Origin: a virus | Taxonomy: Duplodnaviria > Heunggongvirae > Uroviricota > Caudoviricetes | IMG/VR virus record: IMGVR_UViG_2529292977_000006 | Direction: 5' to 3' (one strand) | Length of the DNA stretch: 4,250 nucleotides | Part shown: piece after piece, positions 616 through 4,250 of the stretch | How the letters are laid out: every line of letters begins with the position of its first letter | Position numbering within the stretch: position 1 is the first letter of the stretch | Position numbers and translations under genes: made by a program | The notes under the pieces: model-generated | What the model was told of the DNA's origin: nothing | Database searches by the model: none | The model's input: the letters and a program-made list of their open reading frames with translations, nothing else

Positions 616-1332
616 ATGGAAACCGTATCTGACGCACTGAAAGCACTGAAAAGAGCCTCTTCACATGTGGTGGCAGCTCGCCTTGGAATTAGTCGTGAAG
701 AGGCTGTCAACGAACTGTGGAAACTGAAACGCCGTGGAGAAGCGGATAACAAGGGGGCGATATGGTGGCTGACTCAGGCTGGTGAAAGTGAACCGGTGTC
801 ACCGGTACCGAAAGTGACGGCGCAAATGCTGACAGAGGCGATTGAACAACATGGCCCACAAACGGCGGATGAACTGGCATTGATGTTCGGAATTACCTCC
901 CGCCGGGCGAATTCATCGCTGGCAATGGCAATCAGCAAAGGGTGTCTGATTCGCGTGAATCAGGATGGTAAATTTCGTTACTGCATACCGGGCGTTGATT
1001 TACCGGCAGAGCCGAAAGCAGCATCCGTAGCTGAAACGGAGGGTAAAGCCCTTCCTCAGCCAGCTGGTGTTGCGTTACCAGTCCAGGAAACGGCTGCACA
1101 GGAAGAAATTAAAACAGAAGCGGTGGAGGACATTGTGAAGTTGCAGCAATCGTTCACTGAAGCGAAAGCAGATGACCTGATTCTACCATCGCTGCATGTG
1201 GCTAACCGCGAGCTGCGCCGGGCGAAAAGTAATGTTCAGAAGTGGGAGCGAGTCTGTGCTGCGCTACGGGAACTGAACAAACACAGGGATATTCTCCGGG
1301 ATATTACCGCCACCAGAGAGCAGCAGCGGTGA
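616..1332 (+). CDS. Hypothetical protein with two tandem winged-helix-like modules, a Pro/Ala-rich linker and a C-terminal coiled-coil-like tail; occupies the position of ren
   Basis: ATG at 616 is preceded by GGAGG (603-607) at 8 nt; the TTG at 598 used by the ORF track has no SD. Stop TGA at 1330-1332. Two segments have a similar HTH-then-basic-wing pattern (residues ~10-50 and ~75-125), followed by [26 protein letters not shown] and a charged helical tail. It sits immediately downstream of P, as ren does in lambda. Confidence 0.6.
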
Positions 1333-3142: not shown

Positions 3143-3700
3143 ATGACCACTATTACCAAAGATCGACTGCTGACAATCCAGCATTGGCGCGAAACATACG
3201 GACCGGGTAGCAACGTTGTGCTTCCAGCAGAAGAAGCGGAAGAGCTGGCACGGATTGCGCTGGCATCACTGGCAGCAGTATCGGATGAACGAGCAGCCTA
3301 TGAATTATTTATGGAGAAGCGTTTCGGAGAATCTGTAGATCGCCGCAGAGCAAAAAATGGCGATAGAGATTACATGGTATGGGATATGGCGCTTGGCTGG
3401 ATTATCTGGTGTCACCGCGCCGCCATGCTTCAGGCTGGAAACTTTCGGGAAAATAAGGGTTCGTCAACCAATAATTTTCGGATAATCTCGGAAACGTCAA
3501 CCAACTCTCCGGCAATCCCTGATGAGGTGTTGTCCGCAATCCTGAAGGTCGCCAGGCTTCGTGCAGATTTCGATGCTTCTGAAGTGGACAGGCGAGGTAT
3601 CGGTAGTTGTCTGGATGAGGCCGAGCAAGAACTTATCGTTACCATTAACGAATACGCCAGTCAGATCGCAGTAGAAGCGACACAGGGGGAGAACCAATGA
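3143..3700 (+). CDS. Hypothetical protein (185 aa); N-terminus paralogous to the 2206..2523 product
   Basis: ATG 3143 lies 2 nt after the upstream stop, with AAGGTGA (3129-3135) upstream; stop TGA 3698-3700. Shares the N-terminal pattern MT(T)ITK-x-R...YG-x-G...AL with the gene at 2206. Confidence 0.6.
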   Translation: MTTITKDRLLTIQHWRETYGPGSNVVLPAEEAEELARIALASLAAVSDERAAYELFMEKRFGESVDRRRAKNGDRDYMVWDMALGWIIWCHRAAMLQAGNFRENKGSSTNNFRIISETSTNSPAIPDEVLSAILKVARLRADFDASEVDRRGIGSCLDEAEQELIVTINEYASQIAVEATQGENQ

Positions 3701-3774
3701 GCCGGCCAGATGCATTTGCAGGCGTTGCTATAGCTATTGCTTTTCTAGTATATGTTATTTGTCGGTGGGGGTAA
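3697..3774 (+). CDS. Candidate 25-aa hydrophobic micropeptide (MSRPDAFAGVAIAIAFLVYVICRWG)
   Basis: ATG 3697 overlaps the upstream stop (ATGA), with GGGGGA (3685-3690) at 6 nt; stop TAA 3772-3774. One short hydrophobic helix. Too short for the ORF track; the call rests only on coupling geometry, the SD and hydrophobicity. Confidence 0.3.
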   Translation: MSRPDAFAGVAIAIAFLVYVICRWG

Positions 3775-3809: not shown

Positions 3810-3914
3810 ATGTCGGATGATATTTCACTGGTAATGGAAGGCGCTCTGGCTGTTATTGCTGTTGTGGGTGTTTACTGCCTGGTTGTGTTTTTGATGGAGC
3901 GCCTGGGGAACTGA
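3810..3914 (+). CDS. Candidate 34-aa small membrane peptide (MSDDISLVMEGALAVIAVVGVYCLVVFLMERLGN)
   Basis: ATG 3810 is preceded by a strong SD, AAGGGAGGG (3798-3806); stop TGA 3912-3914. One TM-like helix flanked by acidic N-terminal and charged C-terminal residues. Not in the ORF track because of its length. Confidence 0.45.
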   Translation: MSDDISLVMEGALAVIAVVGVYCLVVFLMERLGN

Positions 3915-3924
3915 ATTCATTCCG

Positions 3925-3940
3925 TATGGGAATTCCCATA
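3925..3940. promoter_or_regulatory. 16-bp perfect palindrome TATGGGAATTCCCATA (candidate operator or weak hairpin)
   Basis: The sequence equals its own reverse complement. It lies 11 nt after the stop of the 34-aa ORF and about 15 nt upstream of the candidate hok promoter -35. There is no following T-tract, so a classical intrinsic terminator is unlikely. Confidence 0.3.
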
Positions 3941-3954
3941 TCGGGCAAAACGGT

Positions 3955-3982
3955 TTGCTGTAAAGCGAGAGTTAAGTAGAAT
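3955..3982 (+). promoter_or_regulatory. Candidate sigma70 promoter for the hok transcript
   Basis: -35 TTGCTG (3955-3960), 16-bp spacer, -10 TAGAAT (3977-3982). This would give a leader of about 170 nt before the hok ATG, in line with the long structured leaders of hok mRNAs. Confidence 0.3.
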
Positions 3983-4000
3983 TGCTGCGGGTGCTTGAGG

Positions 4001-4036
4001 CTGTCTGCCTCGGGCATGCCACCGTAAGGCAGACAG
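4001..4036 (+). other. Stable hairpin in the presumed hok mRNA leader (10-bp perfect stem, 16-nt loop)
   Basis: CTGTCTGCCT (4001-4010) is the exact reverse complement of AGGCAGACAG (4027-4036). It is not followed by a U-tract. Confidence 0.35.
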
Positions 4037-4157
4037 AGAAAAGCCCCAGTTAACATTACGCGTCCTGCAAGACGCTTAACATTAATCTGAGGCCCAATCT
4101 ATGCTTCACAAACGTAGGTTAGCCTCTTACGCGCCGAAAGGCAAGGAGAAGCAGGTT

Positions 4158-4250
4158 ATGAAGCAGCAAAAGGCGATGTTAATCGCCCTGATCGTCATCT
4201 GTTTAACCGTCATAGTGACGGCACTGGTAACGAGGAAAGACCTCTGCGAG
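4158..4250 (+). CDS. hok: Hok-family type I toxin (HokD/RelF-like), 3'-truncated by the window edge
   Basis: ATG 4158 is preceded by AAGGAGAAG (4142-4150). The translation MKQQKAMLIALIVICLTVIVTALVTRKDLCE matches the N-terminus of E. coli HokD/RelF as I remember it, including the TM helix and the conserved Cys. An in-frame ATG at 4101 with its own SD lies upstream. Confidence 0.75.
   Translation, partial: MKQQKAMLIALIVICLTVIVTALVTRKDLCE

What the first reader, a model, noticed from the sequence alone, without database searches (positions are those of the whole stretch)
4001..4085. Structured elements in the hok leader: 10-bp perfect hairpin, then a short hairpin flanked by 9-bp direct repeats
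CTGTCTGCCT/AGGCAGACAG (4001-4036) forms a 10-bp stem. Immediately downstream, TTAACATTA occurs twice (4050-4058 and 4076-4084), flanking a 5-bp inverted repeat GCGTC-CTGCAA-GACGC (4060-4075). hok mRNAs are known to rely on long-range folds (fbi, tac, ucb/dcb elements) to keep the full-length transcript translationally inert. These elements may be the local equivalents, or the terminator of the antisense RNA read on the minus strand.
Basis: seen in the sequence. Interest (0 to 1): 0.4.

Follow-up and report, generated by a model that had tools for sequence, protein, structure and literature searches.

The report
Known hok/sok leader hairpins, prophage variant
The two structures are the standard, already-described hairpins of a prophage hok/sok toxin-antitoxin locus: one is the fixed hairpin at the 5' end of the toxin mRNA, and the other is the stem-loop and terminator of the Sok antisense RNA, which folds more weakly on the toxin mRNA strand.

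Summary
They belong to a well-known system.

**Identity of the locus**
- Window 3989-4163 (+) matches Rfam RF01794 at 114.9 bits (gathering score 59).
- The locus is 100% identical to prophage hok loci in E. coli O157:H7.
- It is about 93% identical to the hokW/mokW/sokW locus of phage 933W/Sp5, which has been validated experimentally.

**The 10-bp hairpin (4001-4036)**
- It is the conserved hairpin between tac (3989-4000) and ucb, the anti-Shine-Dalgarno box (4041-4049).
- It forms in both the predicted full-length and truncated mRNA folds.
- It is 93% paired across 62 distinct leaders, with compensatory changes.
- Its 5' arm also supplies the partner of tac in the metastable co-transcriptional hairpin (3993-4015).

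**The repeat-flanked hairpin (4050-4084)**
- It is the inner part of a larger hairpin (4043-4093). In the full-length mRNA that hairpin is closed by pairing of ucb with the mok Shine-Dalgarno sequence.
- On the minus strand the same hairpin is the stem-loop and terminator of Sok (about 4109 to 4039).
- The "direct repeat" TTAACATTA reads UAAUGUUAA in Sok. That sequence pairs with itself through G·U wobbles.
- The stem is therefore continuous in Sok but interrupted by C·A mismatches in the mRNA. This strand asymmetry holds in 62 of 62 loci examined.
- The apical GCGTC/GACGC stem is a lineage-specific extension found in 15 of the 62 leaders.

**Verdict:** already known, low interest.

The parts
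3977..3982 (+). Putative -10 hexamer (TAGAAT) of the hok mRNA promoter. The start site is placed at about 3989.
   Evidence: Read from the sequence. It lies 7 nt upstream of GGGTGCTTGAGG, which aligns with the 5' end of the Rfam model and with the 5' ends of all 62 aligned leaders. Inferred; not mapped experimentally.
3989..4000 (+). tac, the 5' end of the hok mRNA. It pairs with the 3' fbi element in the full-length mRNA and with ucb in the truncated mRNA.
   Evidence: In the full-length minimum-free-energy fold, 3989-4000 pairs with window-equivalent 4363-4375 (L001 1964-1976). In the truncated fold, 3989-3996 pairs with 4041-4047. A complementary fbi lies 340-387 nt downstream in most loci, and it covaries with tac: GGGUGC/GCACCC versus GGGCGC/GCGCCC.
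3993..4015 (+). Metastable co-transcriptional hairpin (GCUUGAGGC-UGUCU-GCCUCGGGC). It sequesters tac in the nascent transcript.
   Evidence: It is the minimum-free-energy structure of transcripts ending at 4015 and at 4040. It is 91.9% paired in 62 leaders. Column 12/20 shows GC 30, GU 19, AU 13.
4001..4036 (+). H1, the first element of the finding: a 10-bp perfect stem plus 3 inner pairs. It is the conserved hairpin between tac and ucb.
   Evidence: It folds at -21.2 kcal/mol, z = -5.3. It is present in both the full-length and truncated folds. It is 93% paired across 62 leaders, and 3 pairs show double changes; column 15/64 shows AU 32, UA 20, GU 7, GC 2. It is more stable on the + strand in 49 of 62 loci.
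4041..4049 (+). ucb, the anti-Shine-Dalgarno box (AAGCCCCAG). It is the switching element that pairs either with the mok Shine-Dalgarno sequence or with tac.
   Evidence: Searches show both alternative pairings. The tac-ucb helix is 95% paired but invariant. The flank of the ucb-SD helix covaries: AU 30, GC 24. The definition of ucb as the anti-SD comes from PMC9841398.
4043..4093 (+). H2 on the mRNA strand. The hairpin is closed by ucb pairing with the mok Shine-Dalgarno sequence. It contains the second element of the finding: repeats 4050-4058 and 4076-4084, and the apex 4060-4075.
   Evidence: It folds at -17.8 kcal/mol, z = -5.2, with 18 pairs and C·A mismatches at 4046/4090, 4054/4081, 4055/4080 and 4065/4070. 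The apex 4060-4075 is an insertion relative to the Rfam consensus.
4039..4109 (-). Predicted Sok antisense RNA. It has a single-stranded 5' tail (4109 to 4096), a stem of about 24 bp (4095 to 4041) and a UUUU tract (4042 to 4039).
   Evidence: The ends are transferred from the sokW misc_RNA annotated in phage 933W (L002 1093-1163, minus strand). The fold gives -30.7 kcal/mol, z = -4.7. Antitoxin activity of sokW was shown experimentally in PMC8621323.
4116..4144 (-). Putative Sok promoter: -35 TTGCCT (4144 to 4139), a 17-nt spacer, and -10 TAACCT (4121 to 4116).
   Evidence: Read from the sequence. The hexamers are identical in 933W. Comparing primer YO-421 of PMC8621323 with the wild-type sequence suggests that AGGTTA was the -10 mutated there; this reading of the primer is my inference. 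The consensus scan did not call this promoter.
4089..4126 (+). Sok-target hairpin of the truncated mRNA. The mok Shine-Dalgarno region GAGGC (4089-4093) pairs with dcb GCCUC (4122-4126). The inner stem is 4096-4103 / 4113-4120 and the loop is 4104-4112.
   Evidence: Truncated and nascent folds. It corresponds to the third hairpin of the Rfam structure. The SD-dcb helix is 93.5% paired. The first six nucleotides of Sok are complementary to loop positions 4104-4109.
4101..4250 (+). mok-like reading frame. It starts at ATG 4101, is in frame with hok, and runs off the window.
   Evidence: Translation of L001 1702-1914 gives a 70-aa product that ends with the Hok sequence. Database proteins of 70 aa have the same architecture.
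4158..4250 (+). The hok toxin gene. Its Shine-Dalgarno sequence AAGGAG lies at 4143-4148. The window holds the first 31 codons.
   Evidence: The complete 51-aa ORF is in L001 1759-1914 and is annotated HokD. The homologues carry Pfam PF01848.

Best explanation
The region is the 5' leader of a prophage-borne hok/mok/sok type I toxin-antitoxin locus, a paralogue of hokW-sokW from phage 933W/Sp5. It is predicted to work as the plasmid R1 paradigm does.

**Hairpin H1 (4001-4036)**
- H1 is a static, mRNA-strand hairpin between tac (3989-4000) and ucb (4041-4049).
- During transcription, tac is first trapped in a metastable hairpin (3993-4015). That hairpin borrows the 5' arm of H1.
- Once the 3' arm of H1 and ucb have been made, H1 forms.
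- In the full-length RNA, tac pairs with the 3' fbi element, and this helix abuts H1. This leaves ucb free to pair with the mok Shine-Dalgarno sequence (4087-4093).
- The ucb-SD pairing closes hairpin H2 (4043-4093) and keeps the mRNA untranslatable and blind to Sok.

**Activation**
- After 3' trimming, tac captures ucb and so closes H1.
- The Shine-Dalgarno sequence then moves to dcb (4122-4126), forming the Sok-target hairpin.

**Hairpin H2 and the direct repeat**
- It is mainly the template for Sok's own long stem-loop and intrinsic terminator on the minus strand.
- The repeat TTAACATTA reads UAAUGUUAA in Sok. It pairs with its second copy through two G·U wobbles, giving a continuous 9-bp helix.
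- On the mRNA strand those wobbles become C·A mismatches.
- The same DNA therefore encodes a strong hairpin for Sok (about -27 to -31 kcal/mol) and a weak, openable one for hok mRNA (about -17 to -18 kcal/mol).

**What is shown and what is inferred**
- Shown here: sequence homology, predicted folds, covariation and strand asymmetry.
- Inferred from R1 and hokW work: transcript ends, 3' processing, the order of folding events, and Sok action.
For: **Family assignment**
- Rfam RF01794 scores 114.9 bits against a gathering score of 59, over the full model length.
- The locus is 100% identical to O157:H7 prophage loci annotated hokD.
- It is 93.4% identical to phage 933W, where mokW, hokW and sokW are annotated.
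- hokW-sokW is an experimentally shown type I toxin-antitoxin system (PMC8621323).

**Predicted folds**
- The minimum-free-energy folds reproduce the R1 model described in PMC9841398.
- Full-length RNA: tac-fbi, ucb-SD and H1 all form.
- Truncated RNA: tac-ucb, SD-dcb and H1 all form.
- Nascent RNA: the metastable hairpin forms.

**Comparative support from 62 distinct leaders (A3)**
- H1 is 93% paired, with pair types AU, UA, GU and GC at one position.
- The metastable hairpin is 91.9% paired, with GC, GU and AU at one position.
- The flank of the ucb-SD helix shows AU 30 and GC 24.
- tac and fbi covary across lineages.

**Sok and strand asymmetry**
- The Sok-strand fold is -30.7 kcal/mol (z = -4.7), with a 14-nt 5' tail, a long stem and a UUUU tract.
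- H2 is more stable on the minus strand in 62 of 62 loci and in 32 of 32 unique sequences.
- The mean difference is -8.1 kcal/mol, against -2.0 kcal/mol from base composition alone.
- In this window the Sok stem has 22 pairs, 4 of them G·U. The mRNA stem has 18 pairs and no G·U.
- H1 shows the opposite bias: it is more stable on the + strand in 49 of 62 loci.
Against: - No transcript ends, processing sites or RNA structures were measured for this locus. All folds are thermodynamic predictions.
- The Sok promoter and terminator were not called by the consensus scanner. They rest on homology to the 933W annotation.
- The tac-ucb helix is invariant, so covariation neither supports nor contradicts it.
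- The apical stem occurs in only 15 closely related leaders. It has just one fully compensatory change and a few one-sided changes.
- The 62 leaders are phylogenetically related, so the shuffle controls overstate significance.
- Earlier work suggested that some chromosomal hok loci are inactive (cited in bioRxiv 10.1101/2025.08.07.668861). Activity of this particular copy is therefore not guaranteed.
Confidence: 0.9

Rival explanations
1. The 9-bp direct repeats mark a small insertion or duplication event. On this view they are a target-site duplication around a 17-nt insert, or a slipped duplication, and the apical hairpin has no selected RNA function.
For: - The apex 4060-4075 is an insertion relative to the Rfam consensus hairpin.
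- It is present in only 15 of 62 leaders, all from Escherichia, Shigella, Kluyvera or close relatives. Other hok lineages have H2 hairpins of 29-38 nt rather than 51 nt.
- A 9-nt repeat within 30 nt is not rare by chance: 0.74 are expected per window.
Against: - The repeat unit is self-complementary through G·U wobble. It forms a continuous 9-bp helix on the Sok strand. Helix formation on the Sok strand therefore accounts for the two copies without any insertion event.
- The extended form is strongly conserved. It occurs in 4273 of 5426 complete E. coli genomes at 90% identity or more.
- Divergent versions keep the stem through changes on both sides. L031 has AACGTC/GACGTT and L032 has TTGAGCGTC/GACGCTCAA.
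- The loop-closing position changes from C..A to U..G.
- An ancient duplication as the origin of the extension cannot be excluded. It would not conflict with the present function.
Confidence: 0.07
2. The two hairpins act at the DNA or protein level. On this view they are operator or iteron-like sites, or a promoter, rather than RNA structures. For example, the second repeat copy would supply the -35 hexamer of a plus-strand promoter.
For: - The consensus scan finds a promoter-like match on the + strand at 4076-4105: TTAACA, an 18-nt spacer, then TATGCT.
- The repeats are spaced 26 bp apart.
Against: - Both elements lie inside a transcribed leader that matches a structured-RNA covariance model at 115 bits.
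- Variation preserves base pairing rather than sequence.
- G·U wobbles fall on the + strand in H1 and on the - strand in H2. This is a signature of RNA-level selection, not DNA-level selection.
- Other hok lineages lack the TTAACA motif altogether.
Confidence: 0.03
3. The locus is a decayed, non-functional hok relic. The hairpins are conserved only because of recent common ancestry among prophages.
For: - Earlier work proposed that chromosomal hok loci are inactive (summarised in bioRxiv 10.1101/2025.08.07.668861).
- Degenerate copies do exist, for example L006, which carries deletions in tac, ucb and H2.
- K-12-type hokD loci have no leader at all (L007, L029, L033, L048).
Against: - Every element of the R1 architecture is intact here: promoter-like hexamers, tac, fbi, ucb, dcb, a mok frame of 70 codons, a full hok ORF, and the Sok promoter and stem.
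- The difference from hokW within H1 is a clean compensatory change, G-C versus A-U.
- The close paralogue hokW-sokW is active (PMC8621323).
Confidence: 0.08

Closest known systems
hokW-mokW-sokW of Stx2 phage 933W / Sakai prophage Sp5
   Same: - About 93% nucleotide identity over the leader and the gene.
- The same order of elements.
- The same extended H2 and Sok stem, with TTAACATTA on both sides of GCGTC...GACGC.
- The same Sok promoter hexamers.
- sokW is annotated as a 71-nt minus-strand RNA.
- Toxin-antitoxin function has been shown experimentally (PMC8621323).
   Different: - It is a different prophage copy.
- H1 has G-C where hokW has A-U, a compensatory change, and the H1 loop differs.
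- The apical loop is CUGCAA rather than CGGCAA.
- The mok N-terminal codons differ.
- A rho-independent terminator follows fbi here but not in 933W.
- The Hok C-terminus differs.
hok/sok of plasmid R1 (the paradigm; Rfam RF01794)
   Same: - The same set of elements is present: tac, fbi, ucb, dcb and the metastable hairpin.
- H1 lies between tac and ucb.
- H2 is closed by ucb-SD pairing.
- Sok has a 5' tail and a long stem.
- The stem is more stable on the Sok strand: -18.8 versus -6.7 kcal/mol for the R1-like loci L065 and L067.
- The folding model is taken from PMC9841398 and PMC1635323.
   Different: - Hok protein identity is only about 43%.
- H1 is shorter here: 36 nt against about 53 nt with a larger loop in R1-like loci.
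- H2 is longer here: 51 nt against 38 nt.
- It carries an extra apical stem.
- The locus is prophage-borne rather than plasmid-borne.
Chromosomal hokC (gef) and other prophage hok loci such as PPompW
   Same: tac, H1, ucb, the Shine-Dalgarno sequence and dcb are nearly identical in sequence.
   Different: - Their H2 and Sok stems are short (30-34 nt) and unrelated in sequence.
- Examples are GAGTGATATTTTACCATCAACCC and ACCCGACTATAAATCGAAGT.
- This implies different Sok bodies and no TTAACATTA repeat.

Membership tests
[quoted passage not shown] | The covariance-model score exceeds the curated gathering threshold. | tested here: met
   114.9 bits against a threshold of 59, E = 1.4e-26, model positions 1-157 of 157, window 3989-4163 on the + strand.
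[quoted passage not shown] | A downstream ORF encodes a Hok/Gef-family toxin of about 50 aa (Pfam PF01848). | tested here: met
   The window encodes the first 31 residues. The identical locus L001 gives the full 51-aa HokD-annotated protein. All close homologues carry PF01848.
[quoted passage not shown] | An overlapping mok reading frame has a translation start that lies inside the Sok-complementary region. | tested here: met
   ATG 4101 opens a 70-codon frame ending at the hok stop. Positions 4096-4109 are complementary to the predicted Sok 5' tail.
[quoted passage not shown] | The 5' end (tac) pairs with the 3' end (fbi) in the full-length mRNA. | tested here: met
   A 12-bp pairing is predicted between 3989-4000 and L001 1964-1976. 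A complementary fbi is found 340-387 nt downstream in most loci, and it covaries with tac. This is a computational result only.
[quoted passage not shown] | ucb (the anti-SD) pairs alternately with the mok Shine-Dalgarno sequence (closed form) or with tac (open form). The Shine-Dalgarno sequence then moves to dcb. | tested here: met
   Both states are recovered as minimum-free-energy structures of the full-length and truncated RNAs. Pair conservation is 93-95%. Covariation is seen in the flank of the ucb-SD helix but not in tac-ucb.
[quoted passage not shown] | A metastable 5' hairpin sequesters tac in the nascent transcript. | tested here: met
   It is the minimum-free-energy structure of the 27-nt and 52-nt nascent RNAs. 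It is 91.9% paired, and three pairs change on both sides. The refolding kinetics were not tested.
[quoted passage not shown] | A cis-encoded antisense Sok RNA has its own promoter, a single-stranded 5' tail and a stable stem-loop. | tested here: inconclusive
   The predicted fold fits: a 14-nt tail, a stem of about 24 bp and a U tract. The promoter hexamers are identical to those of sokW. No expression data exist for this copy, and the consensus scanner called neither the promoter nor the terminator.
[quoted passage not shown] | Slow 3' processing activates the mRNA, and Sok blocks mok translation with RNase III cleavage of the duplex. Loss of Sok leads to killing. | not testable with these tools
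   Known for R1 (PMC1635323, PMC9841398). Shown in part for hokW-sokW (PMC8621323). Not measurable here.

The most novel reading that the evidence does not exclude
The most novel reading concerns strand-asymmetric helix coding. G·U wobbles in Sok become C·A mismatches in hok mRNA. On this reading, that asymmetry is a selected, family-wide design rule. It would let one DNA segment encode a strong terminator and stability hairpin for the antitoxin, and a deliberately weak, switchable anti-Shine-Dalgarno hairpin for the toxin mRNA.

In the prophage hokW/hokD-type lineage, the rule would have been elaborated by a 16-17-nt apical extension with wobble-palindromic arms. That extension might change Sok half-life, or its dependence on Hfq or RNase III, in a way tuned to prophage induction.
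Probability: 0.3. Interest if true: 0.35.

Novelty: already known. Interest (0 to 1): 0.12.

Why it matters
The finding adds little that is new. Its main value is to show that the leader can be annotated confidently as a complete hok/mok/sok module. RefSeq currently leaves the Sok region unannotated.

Two modest points may interest RNA specialists.
- The apparent direct repeat is a wobble palindrome. It gives a tight stem in the antitoxin RNA and a mismatched stem in the toxin mRNA.
- This strand asymmetry was seen in all 62 leaders examined. It fits the published observation that extra base pairs in the SD/anti-SD stem lock hok mRNA in its closed form.

The extended Sok stem is extremely common. 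It occurs in 79% of complete E. coli genomes, with a median of two copies per genome that has it.

Tried and rejected
- **Promoter and terminator scan.** The consensus scan found no terminator and no Sok promoter. Its rules are too strict for the imperfect long stem and for the TAACCT -10 hexamer. Its only + strand hit (4076-4105) is not conserved in other hok lineages and was set aside.
- **Weak Rfam hit.** The match to the snoRNA family ceN48 (20.9 bits, E = 0.99) is chance.
- **First truncated fold.** Cutting the mRNA immediately before fbi gave a non-canonical 5'-3' pairing. Cutting 4-8 nt after the GGCGGGGGAGAAAUCCCUCGCC "road-block" hairpin gave the canonical open form. Cuts 0-2 nt after that hairpin gave tac-ucb but a different pairing for the Shine-Dalgarno sequence.
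- **Locus search with eight Hok sequences.** The search for related loci failed because no conserved stretch was found. A three-sequence alignment worked.
- **Viral-contig pattern scan.** The pattern fixed AACATT...AACAT. It therefore says nothing about conservation of the wobble positions, and I used it only for variation in the apex and loop.
- **Literature.** Gultyaev et al. 2000 (PMC1370018) is not held. The classical covariation paper could not be compared directly.
- **Target-site-duplication reading of the repeats.** I considered this and judged it unnecessary; see the rival explanations.

Full report
**Observation**

The sequence features are exactly as described.
- There is a perfect 10-bp inverted repeat, CTGTCTGCCT (4001-4010) / AGGCAGACAG (4027-4036).
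- TTAACATTA occurs at 4050-4058 and at 4076-4084.
- The repeats flank GCGTC (4060-4064), CTGCAA and GACGC (4071-4075).

I estimated chance expectation from 500 dinucleotide-preserving shuffles of the window.
- A perfect hairpin of at least 10 bp is expected 0.08 times per window.
- A 9-nt repeat within 30 nt is expected 0.74 times, so the repeat alone is unremarkable.

Both segments fold much better than shuffled controls, with z = -5.3 and z = -5.2.

**What the locus is**

- A scan against Rfam gives one strong hit. RF01794 ("sok antitoxin") matches the + strand at 3989-4163, over the full model, at 114.9 bits against a gathering score of 59.
- The model is on the hok-mRNA strand. Its consensus begins GGGUGCUUGA and ends at the hok AUG.
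- Positions 3900-4250 are 100% identical to loci in many E. coli O157:H7 chromosomes, where the downstream gene is annotated hokD.
- The region is 93.4% identical to phage 933W and related Stx phages. In 933W, mokW, hokW and a 71-nt minus-strand sokW RNA are annotated.
- The upstream genes place the locus in a lambdoid prophage. They include a lambda P-like replication protein, DUF1627, DUF4406, DUF4752 and an Ead/Ea22-like protein.
- The window holds the mok-like start (ATG 4101, a 70-codon frame) and the first 31 codons of hok (ATG 4158).

**Mapping the elements**

I used an identical chromosomal copy to supply the missing 3' part (L001; window coordinate = L001 coordinate + 2399). I then folded the predicted transcripts.

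*Full-length RNA (387 nt, ending at fbi)*
- 3989-4000 pairs with window-equivalent 4363-4375. This is the tac/fbi end-pairing.
- H1 (4001-4036) forms directly next to that helix.
- 4043-4049 (ucb, the anti-Shine-Dalgarno box) pairs with 4087-4093, which contains the mok Shine-Dalgarno GAGG.

*RNA truncated 4-8 nt after the GC-rich hairpin at window-equivalent 4321-4342*
- 3989-3996 pairs with 4041-4047 (tac/ucb).
- H1 is unchanged.
- GAGGC (4089-4093) pairs with GCCUC (4122-4126, dcb). This forms a hairpin with loop 4104-4112.

*Nascent RNAs ending at 4015 or 4040*
- These fold into GCUUGAGGC-UGUCU-GCCUCGGGC (3993-4015). This is the metastable hairpin that sequesters tac, and it uses the 5' arm of H1.

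These three states are the ones described for plasmid R1 (PMC9841398; PMC1635323).

**Comparative test**

- I fetched 80 hok loci from one-genome-per-species contigs, using Hok protein patterns.
- I extracted 62 distinct leaders and aligned them as A3.

| Helix | Cells paired | Variation |
|---|---|---|
| H1 | 93% | Three pairs change on both sides; one position shows AU 32, UA 20, GU 7, GC 2 |
| Metastable hairpin | 91.9% | One position shows GC 30, GU 19, AU 13 |
| Flank of ucb-SD | 72% | One position shows AU 30, GC 24 |
| tac-ucb | 95% | Invariant, so uninformative |
| SD-dcb | 93.5% | One-sided changes only |

- At the four-pair-type position of H1, the window has G-C, hokW has A-U and the hokC type has G·U.
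- The column in the 5' arm of H1 that pairs in the metastable hairpin also pairs within H1. This is the coupled-covariation pattern expected for a dual-use strand.
- A sequence complementary to the first 12 nt lies 340-387 nt downstream in most loci. It covaries with tac: GGGUGC/GCACCC versus GGGCGC/GCGCCC.
- The sequences are related by descent, so the shuffle controls overstate significance. The slid-partner controls also favour the tested register.

**The second element and the direct repeat**

- I transferred the 933W sokW ends to the window. This gives a minus-strand RNA from about 4109 to about 4039.
- It folds at -30.7 kcal/mol (z = -4.7). It has a 14-nt single-stranded 5' tail, a long stem and a UUUUCUCU tail.
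- The tail is complementary to 4096-4109, which includes the mok AUG.
- In this fold UUAAUGUUA pairs with UAAUGUUAA. There are seven Watson-Crick pairs and two G·U pairs.
- The plus-strand direct repeat TTAACATTA is therefore the image of a sequence that is self-complementary once wobble pairs are allowed.
- On the mRNA strand the same positions are C·A mismatches (4054/4081 and 4055/4080). Further C·A mismatches lie at 4046/4090 and 4065/4070.
- The mRNA hairpin has 18 pairs and folds at about -17 to -18 kcal/mol. The Sok hairpin has 22 pairs and folds at about -27 kcal/mol for the same 51 nt.

This asymmetry is general across the family.
- The ucb-to-SD segment is more stable on the minus strand in 62 of 62 loci, and in 32 of 32 unique sequences.
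- These include sequence-unrelated hairpin types from Escherichia, Photorhabdus, Pantoea, Erwinia and R1-like plasmids.
- The mean difference is -8.1 kcal/mol, against -2.0 kcal/mol expected from base composition.
- H1 shows the opposite bias. It is more stable on the + strand in 49 of 62 loci.

My inference is that H2 is selected mainly as Sok's stem-loop and terminator. Its mRNA image is kept weak enough to let tac displace the Shine-Dalgarno sequence from ucb. This agrees with the R1 result that substitutions adding base pairs to the SD/anti-SD stem-loop abolish toxicity (PMC9841398).

**The apical stem**

- GCGTC/GACGC (4060-4075) is an insertion relative to the Rfam consensus.
- It occurs in 15 of the 62 leaders, all from Escherichia, Shigella, Kluyvera or close relatives.
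- Divergent members keep it through changes on both sides. L031 has AACGTC/GACGTT and L032 has TTGAGCGTC/GACGCTCAA.
- Phage contigs show GACGC changed to GACGT, which keeps a wobble pair. They also show the loop-closing C..A changed to U..G.
- The 60-nt segment 4037-4096 is present at 90% identity or more in 4273 of 5426 complete E. coli genomes. The median is two copies per genome that has it. No feature is annotated under it.
- The segment also occurs on 572 plasmid records.

**Promoters (inferred)**

- The hok promoter has a -10 hexamer TAGAAT at 3977-3982, placing +1 at about 3989.
- The Sok promoter has -35 TTGCCT (4144 to 4139), a 17-nt spacer and -10 TAACCT (4121 to 4116), placing +1 at about 4109.
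- The Sok hexamers are identical in 933W.
- Primer YO-421 of PMC8621323 differs from the wild type at AGGTTA. I read this as the -10 mutation used there.

**Verdict**

- Both structures are real, conserved parts of a known regulatory RNA system.
- The first hairpin is not one of the named boxes. It is the static hairpin between tac and ucb, and its 5' arm doubles as the anti-tac strand.
- The second is the Sok stem-loop and terminator, seen from the mRNA strand.
- Novelty: already known.
- The wobble-palindrome explanation of the repeat and the 62-of-62 strand asymmetry are small additions to what is known.

Noticed in passing
window 3925-3940: There is a perfect 16-bp palindrome, TATGGGAATTCCCATA, 65 nt upstream of the predicted hok +1. 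It lies between a small ORF and the hok promoter. It is found 64-65 nt upstream at 13 of 128 tac sites in the fetched loci. It could be a protein-binding site or the end of the upstream transcript.
   Followed up: partly
window 3697-3774 and 3810-3914: Two very small hydrophobic ORFs (25 aa and 34 aa) lie immediately upstream of hok. The second is annotated as a hypothetical protein in RefSeq and has no Pfam match. 933W has a relative of the first ORF just upstream of hokW.
   Followed up: no
window 655-664 / 695-704; 634-651; 3462-3471 / 3495-3504: A second perfect 10-bp inverted repeat (GCCTCTTCAC/GTGAAGAGGC, 30-nt loop) lies inside the DUF1627 ORF. There is also a tandem GCACTGAAA x2, and a 10-nt direct repeat CGTCAACCAA inside the ORF at 3143-3700.
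   Followed up: no
window 3989-4163 (Rfam RF01794): The Rfam family is named 'sok antitoxin', but its model lies on the hok-mRNA strand. The consensus starts with the mRNA 5' end GGGUGCUUGA and ends at the hok AUG. A hit therefore marks the leader, not the strand of the Sok RNA.
   Followed up: yes
E. coli genomes, region equivalent to window 4037-4096; L007, L029, L033, L048: RefSeq annotates no feature over the Sok region in any listed genome. It names the toxin HokD, although K-12-type hokD loci next to relE have no tac, H1 or H2 leader at all. The name hides a real difference in regulation.
   Followed up: partly
L013, L023, L030, L065, L066, L067: Hok contigs resembling those of E. coli or R1 plasmids occur in assemblies labelled Veillonella, Acinetobacter, Xanthomonas, Ferruginibacter, Streptomyces and Oscillibacter. 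These are most likely contamination or mis-binning.
   Followed up: no
L006 (E. coli ECMA0423), leader region: This is a degenerate copy of the extended-type leader. It has single-base deletions in ucb (GCCC-AG) and in the second repeat (GCTGACATTAA), and an altered tac/H1. It appears to be a decaying paralogue.
   Followed up: no
window 4076-4105, + strand: A promoter-like match, TTAACA-18-TATGCT, overlaps the second repeat copy and the mok start. It is not conserved in other hok lineages and was not tested.
   Followed up: no
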